A DNA stretch of 64,000 nt from a virus. Made by a program: the position numbers and the translations under genes. Positions 45,260 through 49,553 of the stretch are shown here, in pieces (position 1 is the stretch's first letter; every line of letters starts with the position of its first letter). Below the pieces are notes generated by a model. The model was given only the letters and a program-made list of their open reading frames with translations. It was not told the origin of the DNA and made no database searches. The stretch spans positions 64,001 through 128,000 of IMG/VR virus record IMGVR_UViG_3300046787_000438; one strand, 5' to 3'.

Positions 45260-45466
45260 ACCCTGACTAAAAGTCAAACACCTGAGCCAAGTGTCTAAAC
45301 TGGCTCATCTTTTTGATTGGAAGTTGTATTTATTTTTTGTCTACCCCCGAGGGGCGACACGCCGAAAAAGATTTTCATAGATAGATTTGACATTCCGTAA
45401 AAAGTTTGCTTTACTTTACTTACTGACCAAAAGGGCAGACACGACACACGAAAGGGGCTAGTCGAA

Positions 45467-46081
45467 ATGACTACCACAGCAACAGCAACACCAAAGATTG
45501 TAGGCAACGCACTCTACCTAGAGTTGGTTGGCGACACTACTATGCCCGAGGACAAACTACGCCAAATGCTCGGGTGGCAACACAAGGGAACTAAGCAGGT
45601 TCTCATGTTCCCCGAGTATCAGGACGACATGGGCAAGACCCACAGCGCAGTCATTATGACCAGAGTTATCACAGAGAACTCCCCACGCGCTCAATGGGAC
45701 ATGAACTACATGGCTCGCAATCGTCCGAAGCCACAGTTGGCAGATAACGATTCTTACTACGCCAACTACCCAGAATACAGCAACGCCGAGTGGGACGCAC
45801 TAACAAGTCGTGAGCAGTTTGAGGCTCGTAAGCGTGCCATAGCAATCCTGCTCAAGAATGTAGTGCTTGACACTTACTACTCCGAGCCAGACGCAGAGGG
45901 CAATCGCACAACGCTCGCAGGGCAGGGTTGGGTTGTTCGTGAGGGAAAACCAATCGCAGTTGAGATTACTGACCAAGACATGACAGAACTTCACAGCGAC
46001 AGCAAAACTCCACAGGCAGTTATTCGCCGAATCAACAAAGTTCGCACGACACTTGACAAGTTCCCAGCAAAACTTGTATAG
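45467..46081 (+). CDS. Hypothetical early protein
   Basis: GAAAGGGG RBS, 204 aa. Confidence 0.7.
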   Translation: MTTTATATPKIVGNALYLELVGDTTMPEDKLRQMLGWQHKGTKQVLMFPEYQDDMGKTHSAVIMTRVITENSPRAQWDMNYMARNRPKPQLADNDSYYANYPEYSNAEWDALTSREQFEARKRAIAILLKNVVLDTYYSEPDAEGNRTTLAGQGWVVREGKPIAVEITDQDMTELHSDSKTPQAVIRRINKVRTTLDKFPAKLV

Positions 46082-46125
46082 TTTCTAATAGATACACACG
46101 ACACGACACGAAAGGGGCGAAAGCC

Positions 46126-47190
46126 ATGTATCAGCAAAAAGTAGTAGCAGAACACACGAACCCAGACCTAGCAGGATTGGACTTCGACAAACTGGCAGAG
46201 GCGGTTTCTAGCGCAGTATCAAGCAAGGCGTTTGGAATCACAACTTCGGTGATTGACGACTTGCTAACTCCAGCAGGACGAGCAACTATCAGAGTAAAGA
46301 CAGGGGCAAAGCCTACTTCACCTATCTCACTTGATTCTCTTGTAGAATCGAAAGAGGAAAAGGCAGAGGTAAGCATGGAACTTGGTGAAACACTTGAGGG
46401 CGCAGAATCATACGCTCGTCCAAATGGCGACTTGTATTATGGTCGCAAGTGGGGCGAAAATGTAGATGTCGAAGTTCTACGCAAAGCACGAGAAGCAGGT
46501 GCTTATGTCATGTTGTATGGAGTCCCTGGAACTGGTAAGACCGCTATGGTCGAAGCCGCTTTTCCAGATGAACTTTACACAATCTTGGGTTCGGGCGACA
46601 CAGAGGTTTCTGACTTGGTGGGTGGCTATGTCCAGACCCCGAGTGGCGGTTTTGAGTGGGTGGACGGAGTTTTGACTCGTTCGGCACTTGAGGGCAAAGT
46701 TCTACTGATTGACGAGATTGGTCTGATTGACCCAAAGGTTCTTTCGGTGGTCTATGGTCTAATGGACGGCAGACGAGAACTGACCATTAGCGCAAACCCA
46801 GAGCGAGGCACTATCAAAGCACAAGAGGGTTTTTATGTCGTGTCAGCGACTAACCCAAATGTCGCAGGTGTTCGCTTGTCAGAGGCACTTCTATCTCGCT
46901 TCGCCATTCAGGTCGAAATGACAACTGACTGGGCGTTGGCAAAGAAGTTGGGTGTTCCGCAGAGTGCCGTTGTCGCTTCACAGAACTTGGCAAAGAAAAT
47001 GGAGAATGGCGAAACTTCATGGTCGCCACAGTTCCGAGAGTTGCTTGCGTTCAGGGACTTGTCAAAGTTGTTCGGAACGAAGTGGGCGGTTCAGAACTTG
47101 CTCGCTTCTGCCCCAGAGATTGACAGACCAGTTGCGTCAGATGTATTCACCCGAGTATTCGGAGAGGCGATTCTGCCAGCCAAGATTTAG
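46126..47190 (+). CDS. MoxR/CbbQ/CobS-like AAA+ ATPase
   Basis: GVPGTGKT Walker A, DLVG, LLIDE Walker B, ATNP, ALLSRF. Confidence 0.9.
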   Translation: MYQQKVVAEHTNPDLAGLDFDKLAEAVSSAVSSKAFGITTSVIDDLLTPAGRATIRVKTGAKPTSPISLDSLVESKEEKAEVSMELGETLEGAESYARPNGDLYYGRKWGENVDVEVLRKAREAGAYVMLYGVPGTGKTAMVEAAFPDELYTILGSGDTEVSDLVGGYVQTPSGGFEWVDGVLTRSALEGKVLLIDEIGLIDPKVLSVVYGLMDGRRELTISANPERGTIKAQEGFYVVSATNPNVAGVRLSEALLSRFAIQVEMTTDWALAKKLGVPQSAVVASQNLAKKMENGETSWSPQFRELLAFRDLSKLFGTKWAVQNLLASAPEIDRPVASDVFTRVFGEAILPAKI

Positions 47191-47319
47191 TAGGTGGTCG
47201 TGTCCCTACTGAAACCCCGAGAGTAGCGCAAGAAAAATGTTTGCGAAAACACTTGCGCTACTCTCAAAAGGGTGTATAGTTAGACATACAACAACAAAGC
47301 CAGATGAAAGGGAAAGCAA

Positions 47320-49185
47320 ATGGCACACTACAGTTCTAAGGGAAAATCAAGACTTACCAAGCGCACTAGCGCAACTCCGTCAGAGTGGTATCGTGTTTGC
47401 TCACAGATTGGTCGTCTAGTAAACGACTGGTCATGGAGAAGCGACCTTGCCGTTTATGGTGGCGAGGATTCATGCGAGGGTCGTGCGATAGCAGGATACT
47501 ACGCCGAGATTGCCGAGATTGAGATAGATGTTCGCAAGGCGTTTGGAGAGGGCGTTAGCCCAGACTTCGTTGGCGACCTAAACGAAAAGGCAACTCGCTA
47601 CGAGTTCCCAATGGTTTCAGGAATCCTATTCCATGAGGCACTTCACGCTCGCCACACAGGCTGGGACACAGCCTACTTGTCAGAGCAGTTTGAGAACATA
47701 GAAGCACAGGCGTTCATGGCACTTGAGGAATCTCGTATCGAATCTCGTGGCGTGAAAGAGCGACCAGAGAATCGTTTGTTCCTACGCACTTCGGCGTTGG
47801 ACATGGCACTTGAGGGCGTAAACGAATCAGCACTCGCAAAACTTGGTGGCGACAAATGGATTACAGCGAATCTCGCAACTCTATCTATCGCACGAGTGGA
47901 CGCAGGTGTTCTTGAGGTTTCAGACATCAGCGAGATTTACAAAGAGGTTGTCAGCGTTCTTGGTCAAGACTTGTTTGACGAACTACGCAAAGTTTGGATT
48001 GCGTTTCAGGCACTAGGCGTTCCACAGATTGACGAGGCGATTGCGCTCGCTAAGAAGTGGGTCGAACTTTTGCGTGAGGCAGACCCAGAGGGCGAGCCAA
48101 ACAAGGACGAAGTTGGCGACCCATTCGCAGAGGAATCTGGCGAGGGTGAGGGCGAGGGCGAAAGCGAATCTGGCGAGGGCAAGGGCGAAATGTCAGAAGC
48201 CATGAAGCAGTTGGTTTCTAAACTTTCAGATTCAGCGAGCAAGACAGAAGCAAACGCAGAGCAAGCACTTGGCGACCAAGAGCGCAAAGAGAAGTGGGAC
48301 GAGGAATCAAAGGCACGCCAGAGCGAAGCGCAGAAAAACAATCAGCGCAAGCAGGAAGCCAAAAAGATTTTCGACAAGAGCCACAACGAAAGTGGTTCTG
48401 GTTCTAACTCACGAGTAAGCGAACGCCGAGTGCCAACTGGCGCAGAGCGAGCCAGCGCAGTCCAGATTGCTAAGGCGTTGGAAAAGGCGAAGTATCGTGA
48501 GCGTTCTGTCCATGTTCGCAAGCACCAAGCACCACAGGGTCGCTTGATTGCTCGCAACGCAGTCCAGAACAAGGCTATGGAATCTATGGGATTGCGTGGC
48601 GAGTTGCCAGCGTGGAAGTCAAAGACACGCAAGCACACAGACGACCCAACTCTCAAGATTGGTGTCATGGTGGACATCTCTGGTTCTATGGGTTCGGCTA
48701 TGGAATCTATGGGAACTACGGCTTGGGTTCTATCGGAAGCAGGTCGCCGAATCCAAGCGGAAACCGCTATGATTTACTACGGCTCGGGTGTCTTTTCAAC
48801 TCTACGCCGAGGTCAGCGATTGAGCGAGGTTTCTATCTACACCGCACCAGACGGAACGGAAAAGTTTGCCGAGGCGTGGGAAGCACTTGACGGCGAACTC
48901 GGATTGACTTTCACAGACGGCGTGCGTTTGTTGGTAATCGTGTCGGACGGAAACTACACACCGAAGCAGACCGAGAGTGCCAAGCAGATTCTCCAAGAGT
49001 GTAAACGGAACGGCGTGGCAGTCTTGTGGATTACCCCGAAAGATTGCTACTCGCTTGGGGCAAGGCACATCATCAACGGCTCGGGTTGGGGAATCCACTT
49101 GGATAACCTTGACACGAATGAGATTGCTTCACTTGTCGGCAAGACGGCAAGCGAAGCGTTGGGTAAGGTCGGCTCGCTCATGTGA
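47320..49185 (+). CDS. VWA domain protein with N-terminal HExxH and acidic linker (CobT-like AAA+ partner)
   Basis: HEALH, EESRIE, E/G-rich linker, MIDAS DISGSM...T...VSDG. Confidence 0.85.
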   Translation: MAHYSSKGKSRLTKRTSATPSEWYRVCSQIGRLVNDWSWRSDLAVYGGEDSCEGRAIAGYYAEIAEIEIDVRKAFGEGVSPDFVGDLNEKATRYEFPMVSGILFHEALHARHTGWDTAYLSEQFENIEAQAFMALEESRIESRGVKERPENRLFLRTSALDMALEGVNESALAKLGGDKWITANLATLSIARVDAGVLEVSDISEIYKEVVSVLGQDLFDELRKVWIAFQALGVPQIDEAIALAKKWVELLREADPEGEPNKDEVGDPFAEESGEGEGEGESESGEGKGEMSEAMKQLVSKLSDSASKTEANAEQALGDQERKEKWDEESKARQSEAQKNNQRKQEAKKIFDKSHNESGSGSNSRVSERRVPTGAERASAVQIAKALEKAKYRERSVHVRKHQAPQGRLIARNAVQNKAMESMGLRGELPAWKSKTRKHTDDPTLKIGVMVDISGSMGSAMESMGTTAWVLSEAGRRIQAETAMIYYGSGVFSTLRRGQRLSEVSIYTAPDGTEKFAEAWEALDGELGLTFTDGVRLLVIVSDGNYTPKQTESAKQILQECKRNGVAVLWITPKDCYSLGARHIINGSGWGIHLDNLDTNEIASLVGKTASEALGKVGSLM

Positions 49186-49553
49186 GTCCCTTGCCCTAAC
49201 GGAGTGCCTAACCGATTGGATTGAGCATAGTGCCAGACCCCCCTTACTGGTCGCTCTCCTAACGGACGGGACACTAGAAGCCCCTATCAACTCTTTCCCC
49301 CATTGGTTGGTAGGGGTTTCGCCATACCCAAGACGGATAGGTGCTTGCGTGGTATTAGCGTGCTAGGGATTGACGGCTCGTCAGAAGTTCTCGTGAAAAG
49401 CAGGTGACAGACTTTTCTGATTTTCGAGCCAGAGGTTGTATTTATTTTTTGTCGAAAACTTCGTATCTTGATTTGACATGACTAAAAAAGTCAGGTAAGT
49501 TTGGAACTACCAAACAGGGACGAACAAGAAGTAGTCCCAAAGGGGGTGTCAGA

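What the first reader, a model, noticed from the sequence alone, without database searches (positions are those of the whole stretch)
47186..47213. 3' hairpin whose loop is complementary to both leaders of its own operon
A 9-bp stem overlaps the AAA+ stop codon, with loop TGGTCGTGTC. GACACGAC occurs just upstream of the RBS of both operon genes (45438-45445 and 46100-46107). This suggests a long-range or trans loop-leader pairing, i.e. feedback on translation or mRNA circularisation. No U-tract follows, so it is not a typical terminator.
Basis: seen in the sequence. Interest (0 to 1): 0.7.

Follow-up and report, generated by a model that had tools for sequence, protein, structure and literature searches.

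The report
Phage mRNA tail pairs own leader
The small hairpin at the end of an early phage ATPase gene has a loop that base-pairs with the ribosome-landing region at the start of the same message; the two sites have changed together in dozens of related phages, so this is very probably a built-in control, most likely a brake, on the gene's own translation.

Summary
A 9-bp hairpin (47186-47213, one G.U pair) encloses the AAA+ stop codon. Eight of its ten loop bases (47197-47204) are the exact complement of GACACGAC in the leaders of both operon genes (45438-45445, 46100-46107).

One 8-mer match proves little. The case rests on 70 related phage contigs:
- In 46 of 59 distinct relatives, a 7-10 nt complement of the AAA+ leader, usually over the Shine-Dalgarno, sits in a hairpin loop at or just after the stop codon.
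- About 20 different sequences are used, and loop and leader switch together. No permutation of 20,000 reached the observed fit. In 27 independent sister pairs, own beat cross in 12 and lost in 1.
- The neighbouring VWA gene has its own private version (up to 15 nt). 400 other genes in the same loci do not.

Best reading: a selected RNA-RNA pairing between the 3' hairpin loop and the 5' leader, probably within one molecule, that limits translation initiation. This resembles icaR and hok-type 5'-3' mRNA closure. No transcript or functional data exist, so the sign of the effect and cis versus trans action are inferred.

The scan has reported similar anti-leader hairpins behind early ATPase genes of other phage genomes. 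No paper describing this element was found in the held library.

The parts
45387..45415 (+). Promoter-like site of the 204-aa gene: -35 hexamer 45387-45392, 17-nt spacer, -10 hexamer 45410-45415
   Evidence: Read from the sequence. The consensus scan does not list it because the -10 lacks A at position 2. Inferred.
45438..45445 (+). Leader target 1: 8 nt complementary to the 3' hairpin loop, -29..-22 of the 204-aa gene's ATG, 4 nt upstream of its SD (45450-45457)
   Evidence: In relatives of the window clade the same position carries the variant that matches their own loop.
45467..46081 (+). 204-aa protein gene with no known family, first gene of the unit. tblastn finds a homolog in 22 of 70 loci; an upstream ORF with a similar C-terminal motif precedes the AAA+ gene in most others.
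46053..46082 (+). Promoter of the AAA+ gene (11 of 12 consensus matches, 18-nt spacer), overlapping the end of the upstream gene. It predicts a leader of about 37 nt starting near 46089.
   Evidence: The same arrangement is seen in relatives. The transcription start is inferred.
46100..46107 (+). Leader target 2: 8 nt complementary to the loop, -26..-19 of the AAA+ ATG. An overlapping 7-nt second register lies at 46105-46111, next to the SD at 46110-46117.
   Evidence: Duplex -13.5 kcal/mol.
46126..47190 (+). MoxR-like AAA+ ATPase gene (354 aa; Pfam AAA_5)
47186..47213 (+). Stop-codon hairpin: 9-bp stem and 10-nt loop. The anti-leader segment 47197-47204 fills the 3' part of the loop (2-nt spacer on the 5' side, none on the 3' side).
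   Evidence: The hairpin is conserved in relatives with changed stem sequences.
47219..47265 (+). Second, 14-bp hairpin with no T-tract. Its 3' arm carries the -35 hexamer of the VWA gene's promoter (47253-47258; -10 at 47275-47280). It may be a 3'-end or processing structure.
   Evidence: Relatives have the same hairpin-with-promoter arrangement, and some have a canonical terminator here. Function inferred.
47320..49185 (+). VWA-domain partner gene (621 aa). Its leader segment 47310-47316 is complementary to a loop in its own 3' UTR.
49277..49320 (+). Long-stem hairpin in the VWA 3' UTR. Its 12-nt loop (49292-49303) contains a 7-nt complement (49293-49299) of the VWA leader/SD. This is the second instance of the same design.
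   Evidence: Relatives show 8-15 nt gene-specific complements.

Best explanation
The hairpin is the 3' half of a selected RNA-RNA pairing. Its loop pairs with the leader of every transcript that ends at this 3' end, namely the 204-aa gene's leader and the AAA+ gene's own leader.

The pairing most likely forms within one mRNA molecule once the 3' end has been transcribed. It closes the message into a 5'-3' loop-linear (pseudoknot-like) complex at or next to the ribosome-binding site.

The expected result is fewer new translation initiations, and probably altered mRNA decay. Each message would then give a short co-transcriptional burst of AAA+ protein and shut itself down. The VWA partner gene has its own private copy of the device.

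Because the stem contains the stop codon, every terminating ribosome must melt the hairpin, which could couple the switch to ongoing translation.

Shown here: the complementarity, its position in a hairpin loop, its covariation and its gene specificity.
Inferred: the transcript ends, action in cis, and repression as the outcome.
For: 1. Conservation with change. In 46 of 59 distinct relatives the longest leader/tail complement is 7-10 nt. It maps to -28..-3 of the AAA+ ATG, mostly over the SD. About 20 different sequences are used across the tree.

2. Matching. The matched-genome sum of longest complements is 429; the maximum in 20,000 permutations is 339. Duplex energies give -1127 against a best permuted value of -923 kcal/mol. 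In 27 phylogenetically independent sister pairs, own beats cross in 12, ties in 14 and loses in 1 (sign test p = 0.0017).

3. Window clade. Both leaders and the loop carry the same one of three variants in each genome.

4. Uniqueness. In two complete relatives (160 kb and 136 kb) the 9-mer occurs exactly once per strand: in the leader and in the loop.

5. Gene specificity. Each leader fits its own 3' tail better than the neighbouring gene's tail (41 to 9 and 39 to 9; Wilcoxon about 7.5e-5). Among 400 other genes with a 3' UTR in the same loci, the mean is 5.4 nt and 4% reach 8 nt. For the AAA+ and VWA genes, 55% and 57% reach 8 nt.

6. Anatomy. All 46 complements are flanked by a helix of 5 bp or more. 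The 3' spacer is 0 nt in 25 and at most 1 nt in 40. The 5' spacer is 1-3 nt in 32. In 36 the stem includes the stop or the last codons. This geometry allows the loop-leader helix to stack on the stem (inference).

7. Thermodynamics. In a pseudoknot-free ensemble of the 1182-nt modelled AAA+ mRNA, the eight leader:loop pairs sum to a probability of 6.87 of 8. Six of 12 relatives tested also give 0.44-0.99.

8. Cultured relatives. In Microbacterium phage Pumpernickel the AAA+ gene is translationally coupled to the gene before it. There the 3' hairpin matches 11 nt of that first gene's SD leader. Phage Cece shows 8 nt.

9. Precedent. SD-complementary sequences far downstream do pair with the RBS in vivo and lower translation and stability (PMC12697547; icaR, PMC3868564).
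Against: - There are no transcript, structure-probing or expression data. The 5' and 3' ends of the mRNA are inferred from promoter-like and hairpin features.
- In the window the duplex is only 8 bp. It lies just 5' of the SD rather than over it.
- Pairing 8 of 10 loop bases is sterically tight.
- Some clades lack a convincing match for the AAA+ gene: L039/L044, L023-L026, L053 and phage DSL-LC01.
- In the L020/L021 clade the leader motif is shared by at least 12 early leaders, so exclusive action in cis is not general.
- In 6 of 12 relatives the nested folding model prefers the local hairpin. A loop-linear pseudoknot cannot be scored with these tools.
- Repression versus stabilisation or activation is not decided by any result here.
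Confidence: 0.6

Rival explanations
1. The hairpin acts in trans. Either it is released as a 3'UTR-derived small RNA, or it stays in the mRNA and pairs with leaders on other molecules. It would then regulate the operon's leaders and, in some phages, a whole class of early leaders.
For: - In the L020/L021 clade the 9-nt leader motif is present in at least 12 sense-strand early leaders, and the AAA+ 3' UTR carries two hairpins with the complementary loop.
- In Cece the loop also matches the downstream gene's leader over 9 nt.
- In L016/L018 a canonical terminator follows the hairpin, as in 3'UTR-derived sRNAs.
- The loop-displayed seed resembles antisense and sRNA kissing loops (general knowledge).
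Against: - In the window genome the motif is present in only the two operon leaders. The other two + strand copies are not at conserved sites.
- In two complete relatives the 9-mer is unique to one leader and one loop.
- The AAA+ and VWA genes each have a private sequence.
- No promoter or processing signal for a separate small RNA was identified.
Confidence: 0.2
2. The same pairing is real but acts positively. Closing the mRNA would protect its 5' end from 5'-end-dependent or leader-cleaving RNases (as in hbs). Alternatively it would bring terminating ribosomes back to the start site and raise output.
For: - In the window clade the duplex lies beside the SD, not on it. A ribosome could therefore bind while the mRNA is closed.
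- The stop codon inside the stem places terminating ribosomes at the junction.
- Precedents: the hbs 5'/3' UTR interaction protects against RNase Y (PMC5737220). The 3' translation elements of plant RNA viruses kiss the 5' UTR (general knowledge).
Against: - In most clades the complement covers the SD core itself, e.g. positions -17..-4. That is incompatible with simultaneous 30S binding.
- Experimental placement of SD-complementary 8-mers downstream lowers expression (PMC12697547).
Confidence: 0.13
3. The complementarity is not an RNA feature. It is either a pair of inverted DNA repeats used by a DNA-binding or recombination protein, or a chance or compositional match between a purine- or C/A-rich leader and a pyrimidine- or G/U-rich loop.
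For: - Short inverted repeats flank many mobile cassettes (general knowledge).
- Trivial matches between A-rich SDs and terminator T-tracts do occur in this genome.
Against: - Gene order is fixed in all 70 loci.
- The sequence changes about 20 times while the partner follows.
- The 3' copy always lies in a hairpin loop with a fixed asymmetric position.
- The 5' copy tracks the SD.
- 400 neighbouring genes lack the feature.
- The permutation tests control for composition.
Confidence: 0.04

Closest known systems
icaR mRNA 5'UTR-3'UTR interaction, Staphylococcus aureus (PMC3868564; review PMC7821165)
   Same: A short pyrimidine-rich motif in the 3' UTR pairs with the SD region of the same mRNA. 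In icaR this blocks the initiation complex and creates an RNase III substrate.
   Different: - icaR's motif lies in a 3' UTR of about 390 nt and is not conserved even in S. epidermidis (PMC7821165).
- Here the motif is displayed in the loop of a hairpin that contains the stop codon.
- It is conserved with covariation across a large phage group and occurs separately on two neighbouring genes.
- In the window the target is beside the SD, not on it.
- No experiment exists for the phage element.
5'-3' long-distance interaction of type I toxin mRNAs (hok fbi/tac; aapA of Helicobacter; PMC6733600 and references there)
   Same: The 3' end pairs with the 5' leader/SD of the full-length mRNA and makes it translationally inert. 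In those systems the pairing was likewise first supported by coupled covariations.
   Different: - Those mRNAs encode small toxic peptides, have an antisense RNA partner, and are activated by 3' trimming.
- Here the genes are a 354-aa AAA+ ATPase and a 621-aa VWA protein of a lytic-type phage early region.
- No antisense partner or trimming is known.
hbs mRNA 5'/3'-UTR interaction, Bacillus subtilis (PMC5737220)
   Same: Pairing between the two UTRs of one mRNA that couples stability to translation.
   Different: The hbs pairing (14 nt) hides an RNase Y site and is protective. It does not target the SD and is not conserved among close relatives (PMC7821165).
Downstream anti-SD-like 8-mers pairing with the RBS (Gill et al. 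2025 preprint, PMC12697547)
   Same: Shows in vivo that an 8-nt RBS complement placed hundreds of nucleotides downstream pairs with the RBS, blocks initiation and speeds decay.
   Different: Those are synthetic substitutions, and natural genes are depleted of them. Here the complement is retained by selection, is gene-specific and is presented in a hairpin loop.
3'UTR-derived small RNAs and loop-seed antisense RNAs (general knowledge)
   Same: A conserved seed at the 3' end of an mRNA, next to a terminal hairpin.
   Different: No evidence of a separate RNA species. In the window the targets are only the leaders of the same transcription unit.

Membership tests
Own-mRNA 5'UTR-3'UTR anti-RBS interaction (icaR type) | The 3' UTR carries a sequence complementary to the SD region of the same mRNA | tested here: met
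   Window: 8 nt at -26..-19, plus a 7-nt register abutting the SD. Relatives: 7-10 nt, mostly over the SD.
Own-mRNA 5'UTR-3'UTR anti-RBS interaction (icaR type) | The pairing is under selection, shown by compensatory change | tested here: met
Own-mRNA 5'UTR-3'UTR anti-RBS interaction (icaR type) | The pairing prevents 30S initiation-complex formation and lowers protein output | not testable with these tools
   Needs toeprinting and reporters with compensatory mutations.
Own-mRNA 5'UTR-3'UTR anti-RBS interaction (icaR type) | The duplex is cleaved by RNase III | not testable with these tools
   Stem plus loop-leader helix would give 17-24 stacked bp. This is inference only.
Type I toxin mRNA 5'-3' long-distance interaction (hok/aapA) | Small toxic peptide ORF with a cis-encoded antisense RNA | tested here: not met
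   The ORFs are 354 aa (AAA_5) and 621 aa. All genes here run on the + strand. No antisense unit was seen, though none was searched for exhaustively.
3'UTR-derived small RNA | A discrete stable RNA ending at an intrinsic terminator, with several trans targets | tested here: inconclusive
   The window has no T-tract terminator, and the only leader targets are the two operon leaders. Some relatives have a terminator or many leaders with the motif. No RNA data.
Intrinsic (Rho-independent) terminator | G+C-rich stem followed by a T-tract | tested here: not met
   The sequence after 47213 has no T run. The scan lists no terminator at 47186-47265.
Any curated RNA family (Rfam 15) | Match reaching the family's gathering score | tested here: not met
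   The best hits lie far below gathering scores, with E of 0.49 or more.

The most novel reading that the evidence does not exclude
The stop-codon hairpin is a termination-coupled switch. The loop-leader complex keeps the ribosome-binding site shut. Only a ribosome that reaches the stop codon and melts the stem releases the leader. Each message would then admit a new ribosome roughly when one leaves, or shut for good once the last ribosome has gone. This would be a gene-private, protein-free closed-loop control of ribosome load. It would be used on both subunits of a phage MoxR-VWA machine to fix their dose.
Probability: 0.12. Interest if true: 0.9.

Novelty: new variant of a known kind. Interest (0 to 1): 0.76.

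Why it matters
Natural cases in which the two ends of a bacterial-type mRNA pair to control its own translation are few (icaR, hbs, hok/aapA-type toxin mRNAs). Those in housekeeping-type genes are poorly conserved, so their generality is debated.

Here the same device is kept across a large group of uncultured and cultured actinobacterial-type phages. It survives about twenty changes of sequence, occurs on two adjacent genes with private sequences, and has a fixed loop geometry at the stop codon.

That provides three things:
- a natural covariation series for studying how far-apart mRNA ends find each other;
- a test of whether terminating ribosomes reset such a switch;
- cultured phages in which to do the experiments (Microbacterium phages Pumpernickel and Cece, Actinomycetia phage DSL-LC01).

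It also suggests that the dose of the phage MoxR-VWA pair is critical early in infection. Finally, it offers a compact, programmable part for self-limiting expression.

Tried and rejected
- RNAalifold on a MAFFT alignment of 19 stop-codon hairpins gave no consensus structure, because variable loop and stem lengths misaligned the 3' arms. I used per-sequence helix detection instead.
- Rfam: nothing.
- A possible third target: the other + strand copies of the 8-mer (9926, and 40361 at codons 4-6 of a 102-aa ORF). Similarly spaced copies in two relatives lie in unrelated contexts, so these are treated as chance.
- A general feature of all early cassettes? No. Other cassettes of the window give 3-8 nt with their own leaders (mostly 5-6). 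Their best hits are trivial terminator-tail versus A-rich SD matches. 400 other genes in related loci are at background.
- Stop-codon read-through was rejected because a second in-frame TAG follows directly.
- PADLOC found nothing. NCBIfam gave only sub-threshold AAA+ matches for the ATPase. Pfam and PHROGs found nothing for the 204-aa protein.
Alignment A2 covers only the window clade. It showed that WIN and L003 share a leader holding both registers, so that particular loop change is not strictly compensatory.

Full report
CONTEXT. The window is bases 64001-128000 of a complete 152,411-bp phage record with direct terminal repeats. The finding lies in a + strand early region. This part holds three genes:
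- a 204-aa gene of no known family (45467-46081);
- a MoxR-like AAA+ ATPase (46126-47190; Pfam AAA_5, E = 3.6e-21);
- a 621-aa VWA-type partner (47320-49185).

The closest cultured relatives of the ATPase are Actinomycetia phage DSL-LC01 and large Microbacterium and Gordonia phages. An actinobacterial host is therefore likely (inference).

THE OBSERVATION.
- The hairpin has a 9-bp stem (47186-47194 with 47205-47213, one G.U pair) and a 10-nt loop. It appears in the MFE fold of the region, and alone it is worth -9.2 kcal/mol.
- The TAG stop lies in the 5' arm and is followed by a second in-frame TAG.
- Loop bases 47197-47204 are the exact complement of GACACGAC at 45438-45445 and 46100-46107 (6 hits on both strands against 0.93 expected).
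- In the whole genome the word occurs four times on the + strand, two of them in these leaders.
- The AAA+ leader also offers a 7-nt second register (46105-46111) that abuts the SD.
- A strong promoter match (46053-46082, 11 of 12) sits just upstream. The AAA+ gene therefore probably has its own leader of about 37 nt that contains the motif.
- No T-tract follows the hairpin, and no terminator is called there.

By itself an 8-nt match means little. It is seen in about 4% of unrelated gene/tail pairs.

COMPARATIVE TEST. A scan of viral contigs returned 70 loci encoding the ATPase at 49-84% identity, and 69 of them have the VWA gene next to it. Reading the 3' ends and leaders side by side shows the hairpin at the stop codon in most loci. 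Its loop is complementary to the gene's own leader, but the sequences differ between clades. For example, one pair of sister contigs differs by a single leader base (GGACGAA versus GGACTAA), and their loops differ by the matching base.

Quantitatively:
- Of 59 non-identical relatives, 46 have a perfect complement of 7-10 nt between leader and 3' tail. It maps to -28..-3 of the ATG, mostly over the SD.
- The sum of longest complements for matched genomes is 429; the maximum in 20,000 permutations of leader-tail assignment is 339.
- Duplex energies give the same result (-1127 against a best permuted -923 kcal/mol).
- On a protein tree the pairs fall into about 20 sequence classes.
- In 27 phylogenetically independent sister pairs, each leader fits its own tail better than its sister's in 12, equally in 14 (motif unchanged) and worse in 1 (sign test p = 0.0017).
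- In the window's own clade three variants of the 8-mer occur. In every genome the upstream gene's leader, the AAA+ leader and the loop carry the same variant. One caveat: the window and L003 share a leader that holds two registers, so that single loop difference is not strictly compensatory.
- In two complete genomes of another clade, the 9-mer occurs once per strand in 136-160 kb, in the leader and in the loop.

ANATOMY.
- All 46 complements are flanked by a helix of 5-15 bp, so they lie in hairpin loops.
- The complement is pushed against the 3' arm: the 3' spacer is 0 nt in 25 cases and at most 1 nt in 40.
- A spacer of 1-3 nt lies on the 5' side in 32 cases.
- In 36 cases the stem includes the stop codon or the last codons.
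- Stem sequences differ while pairing is kept, including changes in the last codons that are matched in the 3' arm.

This asymmetric placement is what a loop-linear helix stacked coaxially on the stem would need (inference from pseudoknot geometry).

Even a nested model of the whole 1182-nt AAA+ message pairs leader and loop, with summed pair probability 6.87 of 8. The same holds in 6 of 12 relatives. In the rest the long local stem wins, and there the contact would have to be a pseudoknot, which these tools cannot score.

SPECIFICITY.
- The VWA gene shows the same design with different sequences. Complements of 8-15 nt link its SD leader to large loops of long-stem hairpins in its own 3' UTR. 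The matched sum is 422, against a permuted maximum of 357.
- In the window the VWA version is a 7-nt match between 47310-47316 and the loop at 49292-49303.
- Within genomes, each leader fits its own tail better than the neighbour's (41 to 9 and 39 to 9).
- 400 other genes with a 3' UTR in the same loci are at background: mean 5.4 nt and 4% at 8 nt or more, against 55% and 57% for the two genes.
- Other cassettes of the window also lack the feature.

CULTURED PHAGES.
- In Pumpernickel the ATPase is translationally coupled to the preceding gene. Its 3' hairpin is complementary over 11 nt to that first gene's SD leader.
- Cece shows 8 nt.
- DSL-LC01 lacks a match for the ATPase but has a 12-nt match for its VWA-like gene.

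In these phages and in the window clade, the target is the leader or leaders of the transcripts that end at the hairpin. This favours pairing within one molecule.

EXCEPTIONS AND LIMITS.
- Some clades show no convincing match for the ATPase.
- In the L020/L021 clade the leader motif is shared by at least 12 early leaders, and two loops carry its complement. Action in trans is plausible there.
- No RNA data could be obtained, so transcript ends, cis action and the direction of the effect are inferred.

COMPARISON WITH KNOWN SYSTEMS. The mechanism resembles three known cases:
- the icaR 5'-3' UTR pairing (PMC3868564);
- the 5'-3' closure of hok/aapA toxin mRNAs (PMC6733600);
- less closely, the hbs interaction (PMC5737220).

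A 2025 preprint shows that 8-nt RBS complements far downstream do pair with the RBS and repress in vivo, and that natural genes avoid them (PMC12697547). Retention here therefore implies function.

The element is not homologous to any of these systems and matches no Rfam family. It differs in four ways: the complement is displayed in a stop-codon hairpin loop, it is broadly conserved with covariation, it occurs privately on two partner genes, and it lies in phage early genes. Library searches found no description of it.

EARLIER NOTES OF THIS SCAN. An overlapping window of the same genome carries the same observation. Follow-up reports on other phage genomes describe comparable anti-leader hairpins behind early ATPase genes. 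These are unchecked AI notes and were not used as evidence. My results agree with them and add four things: the VWA case, the within-genome and 400-gene controls, the loop geometry and the cultured examples.

VERDICT. The element is best seen as a new, well-conserved variant of own-mRNA 5'-3' pairing, most likely self-limiting translation. Experimental proof is outstanding.

Noticed in passing
window 49186-49440 (hairpin about 49277-49320, loop 49292-49303); related loci L014, L016, L017, L027, L054, L058 and others: The VWA gene's 3' UTR holds long-stem hairpins whose large pyrimidine-rich loops are complementary to the VWA gene's own SD leader. The match is 7 nt in the window and up to 15 nt in relatives, with gene-specific sequences. 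The whole spacer of about 250 nt folds into a long closed structure (-91 kcal/mol, z = -2.1).
   Followed up: partly
window 47219-47265 and 47275-47280: A 14-bp hairpin without a T-tract carries the -35 hexamer of the VWA promoter in its 3' arm. Relatives keep the same hairpin-with-promoter arrangement, with TTGACA in the 3' arm, and in some a canonical terminator replaces it.
   Followed up: partly
L077/L078 (G001 contig 84000-107000; clade of L020/L021): At least 12 sense-strand early leaders share the same 9-nt word. It is placed right after a TATAAT box and a small hairpin, and just before the SD. Four more copies serve divergently oriented genes. The only complementary loops in 23 kb are the two hairpins after the AAA+ gene.
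   Followed up: partly
window 46837-46844: A second copy of the loop's 8-mer (the complement of the leaders) lies inside the AAA+ coding sequence. Whether it is conserved, or also pairs with the leaders, was not examined.
   Followed up: no
window 45467-46081 and 46053-46082: The 204-aa protein has no Pfam, PHROG, NCBIfam or PADLOC match. It is conserved upstream of the ATPase in many relatives and has a recurring C-terminal motif. The AAA+ promoter is embedded in its last codons, and its stop codon lies inside the -10 hexamer.
   Followed up: no
window 45430-45460 and 46090-46117: The two leaders are near-duplicates: a C/A-rich short tandem (CGACA-like) repeat followed by the same extended SD. 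No other leader of the 152-kb genome carries this block.
   Followed up: partly
L045, L048, L051 (about 60 nt after the AAA+ stop): In this clade a tRNA-like sequence follows directly after the second hairpin behind the AAA+ gene. It was not checked with a tRNA finder.
   Followed up: no
L075 (Microbacterium phage Cece, genes 213-214): The homolog of the VWA partner is annotated 'rIIA-like protein' and the next gene 'rIIB-like protein' in the public record. In DSL-LC01 the same partner is annotated 'cobalamin biosynthesis protein'. The function of the pair is evidently unsettled.
   Followed up: no
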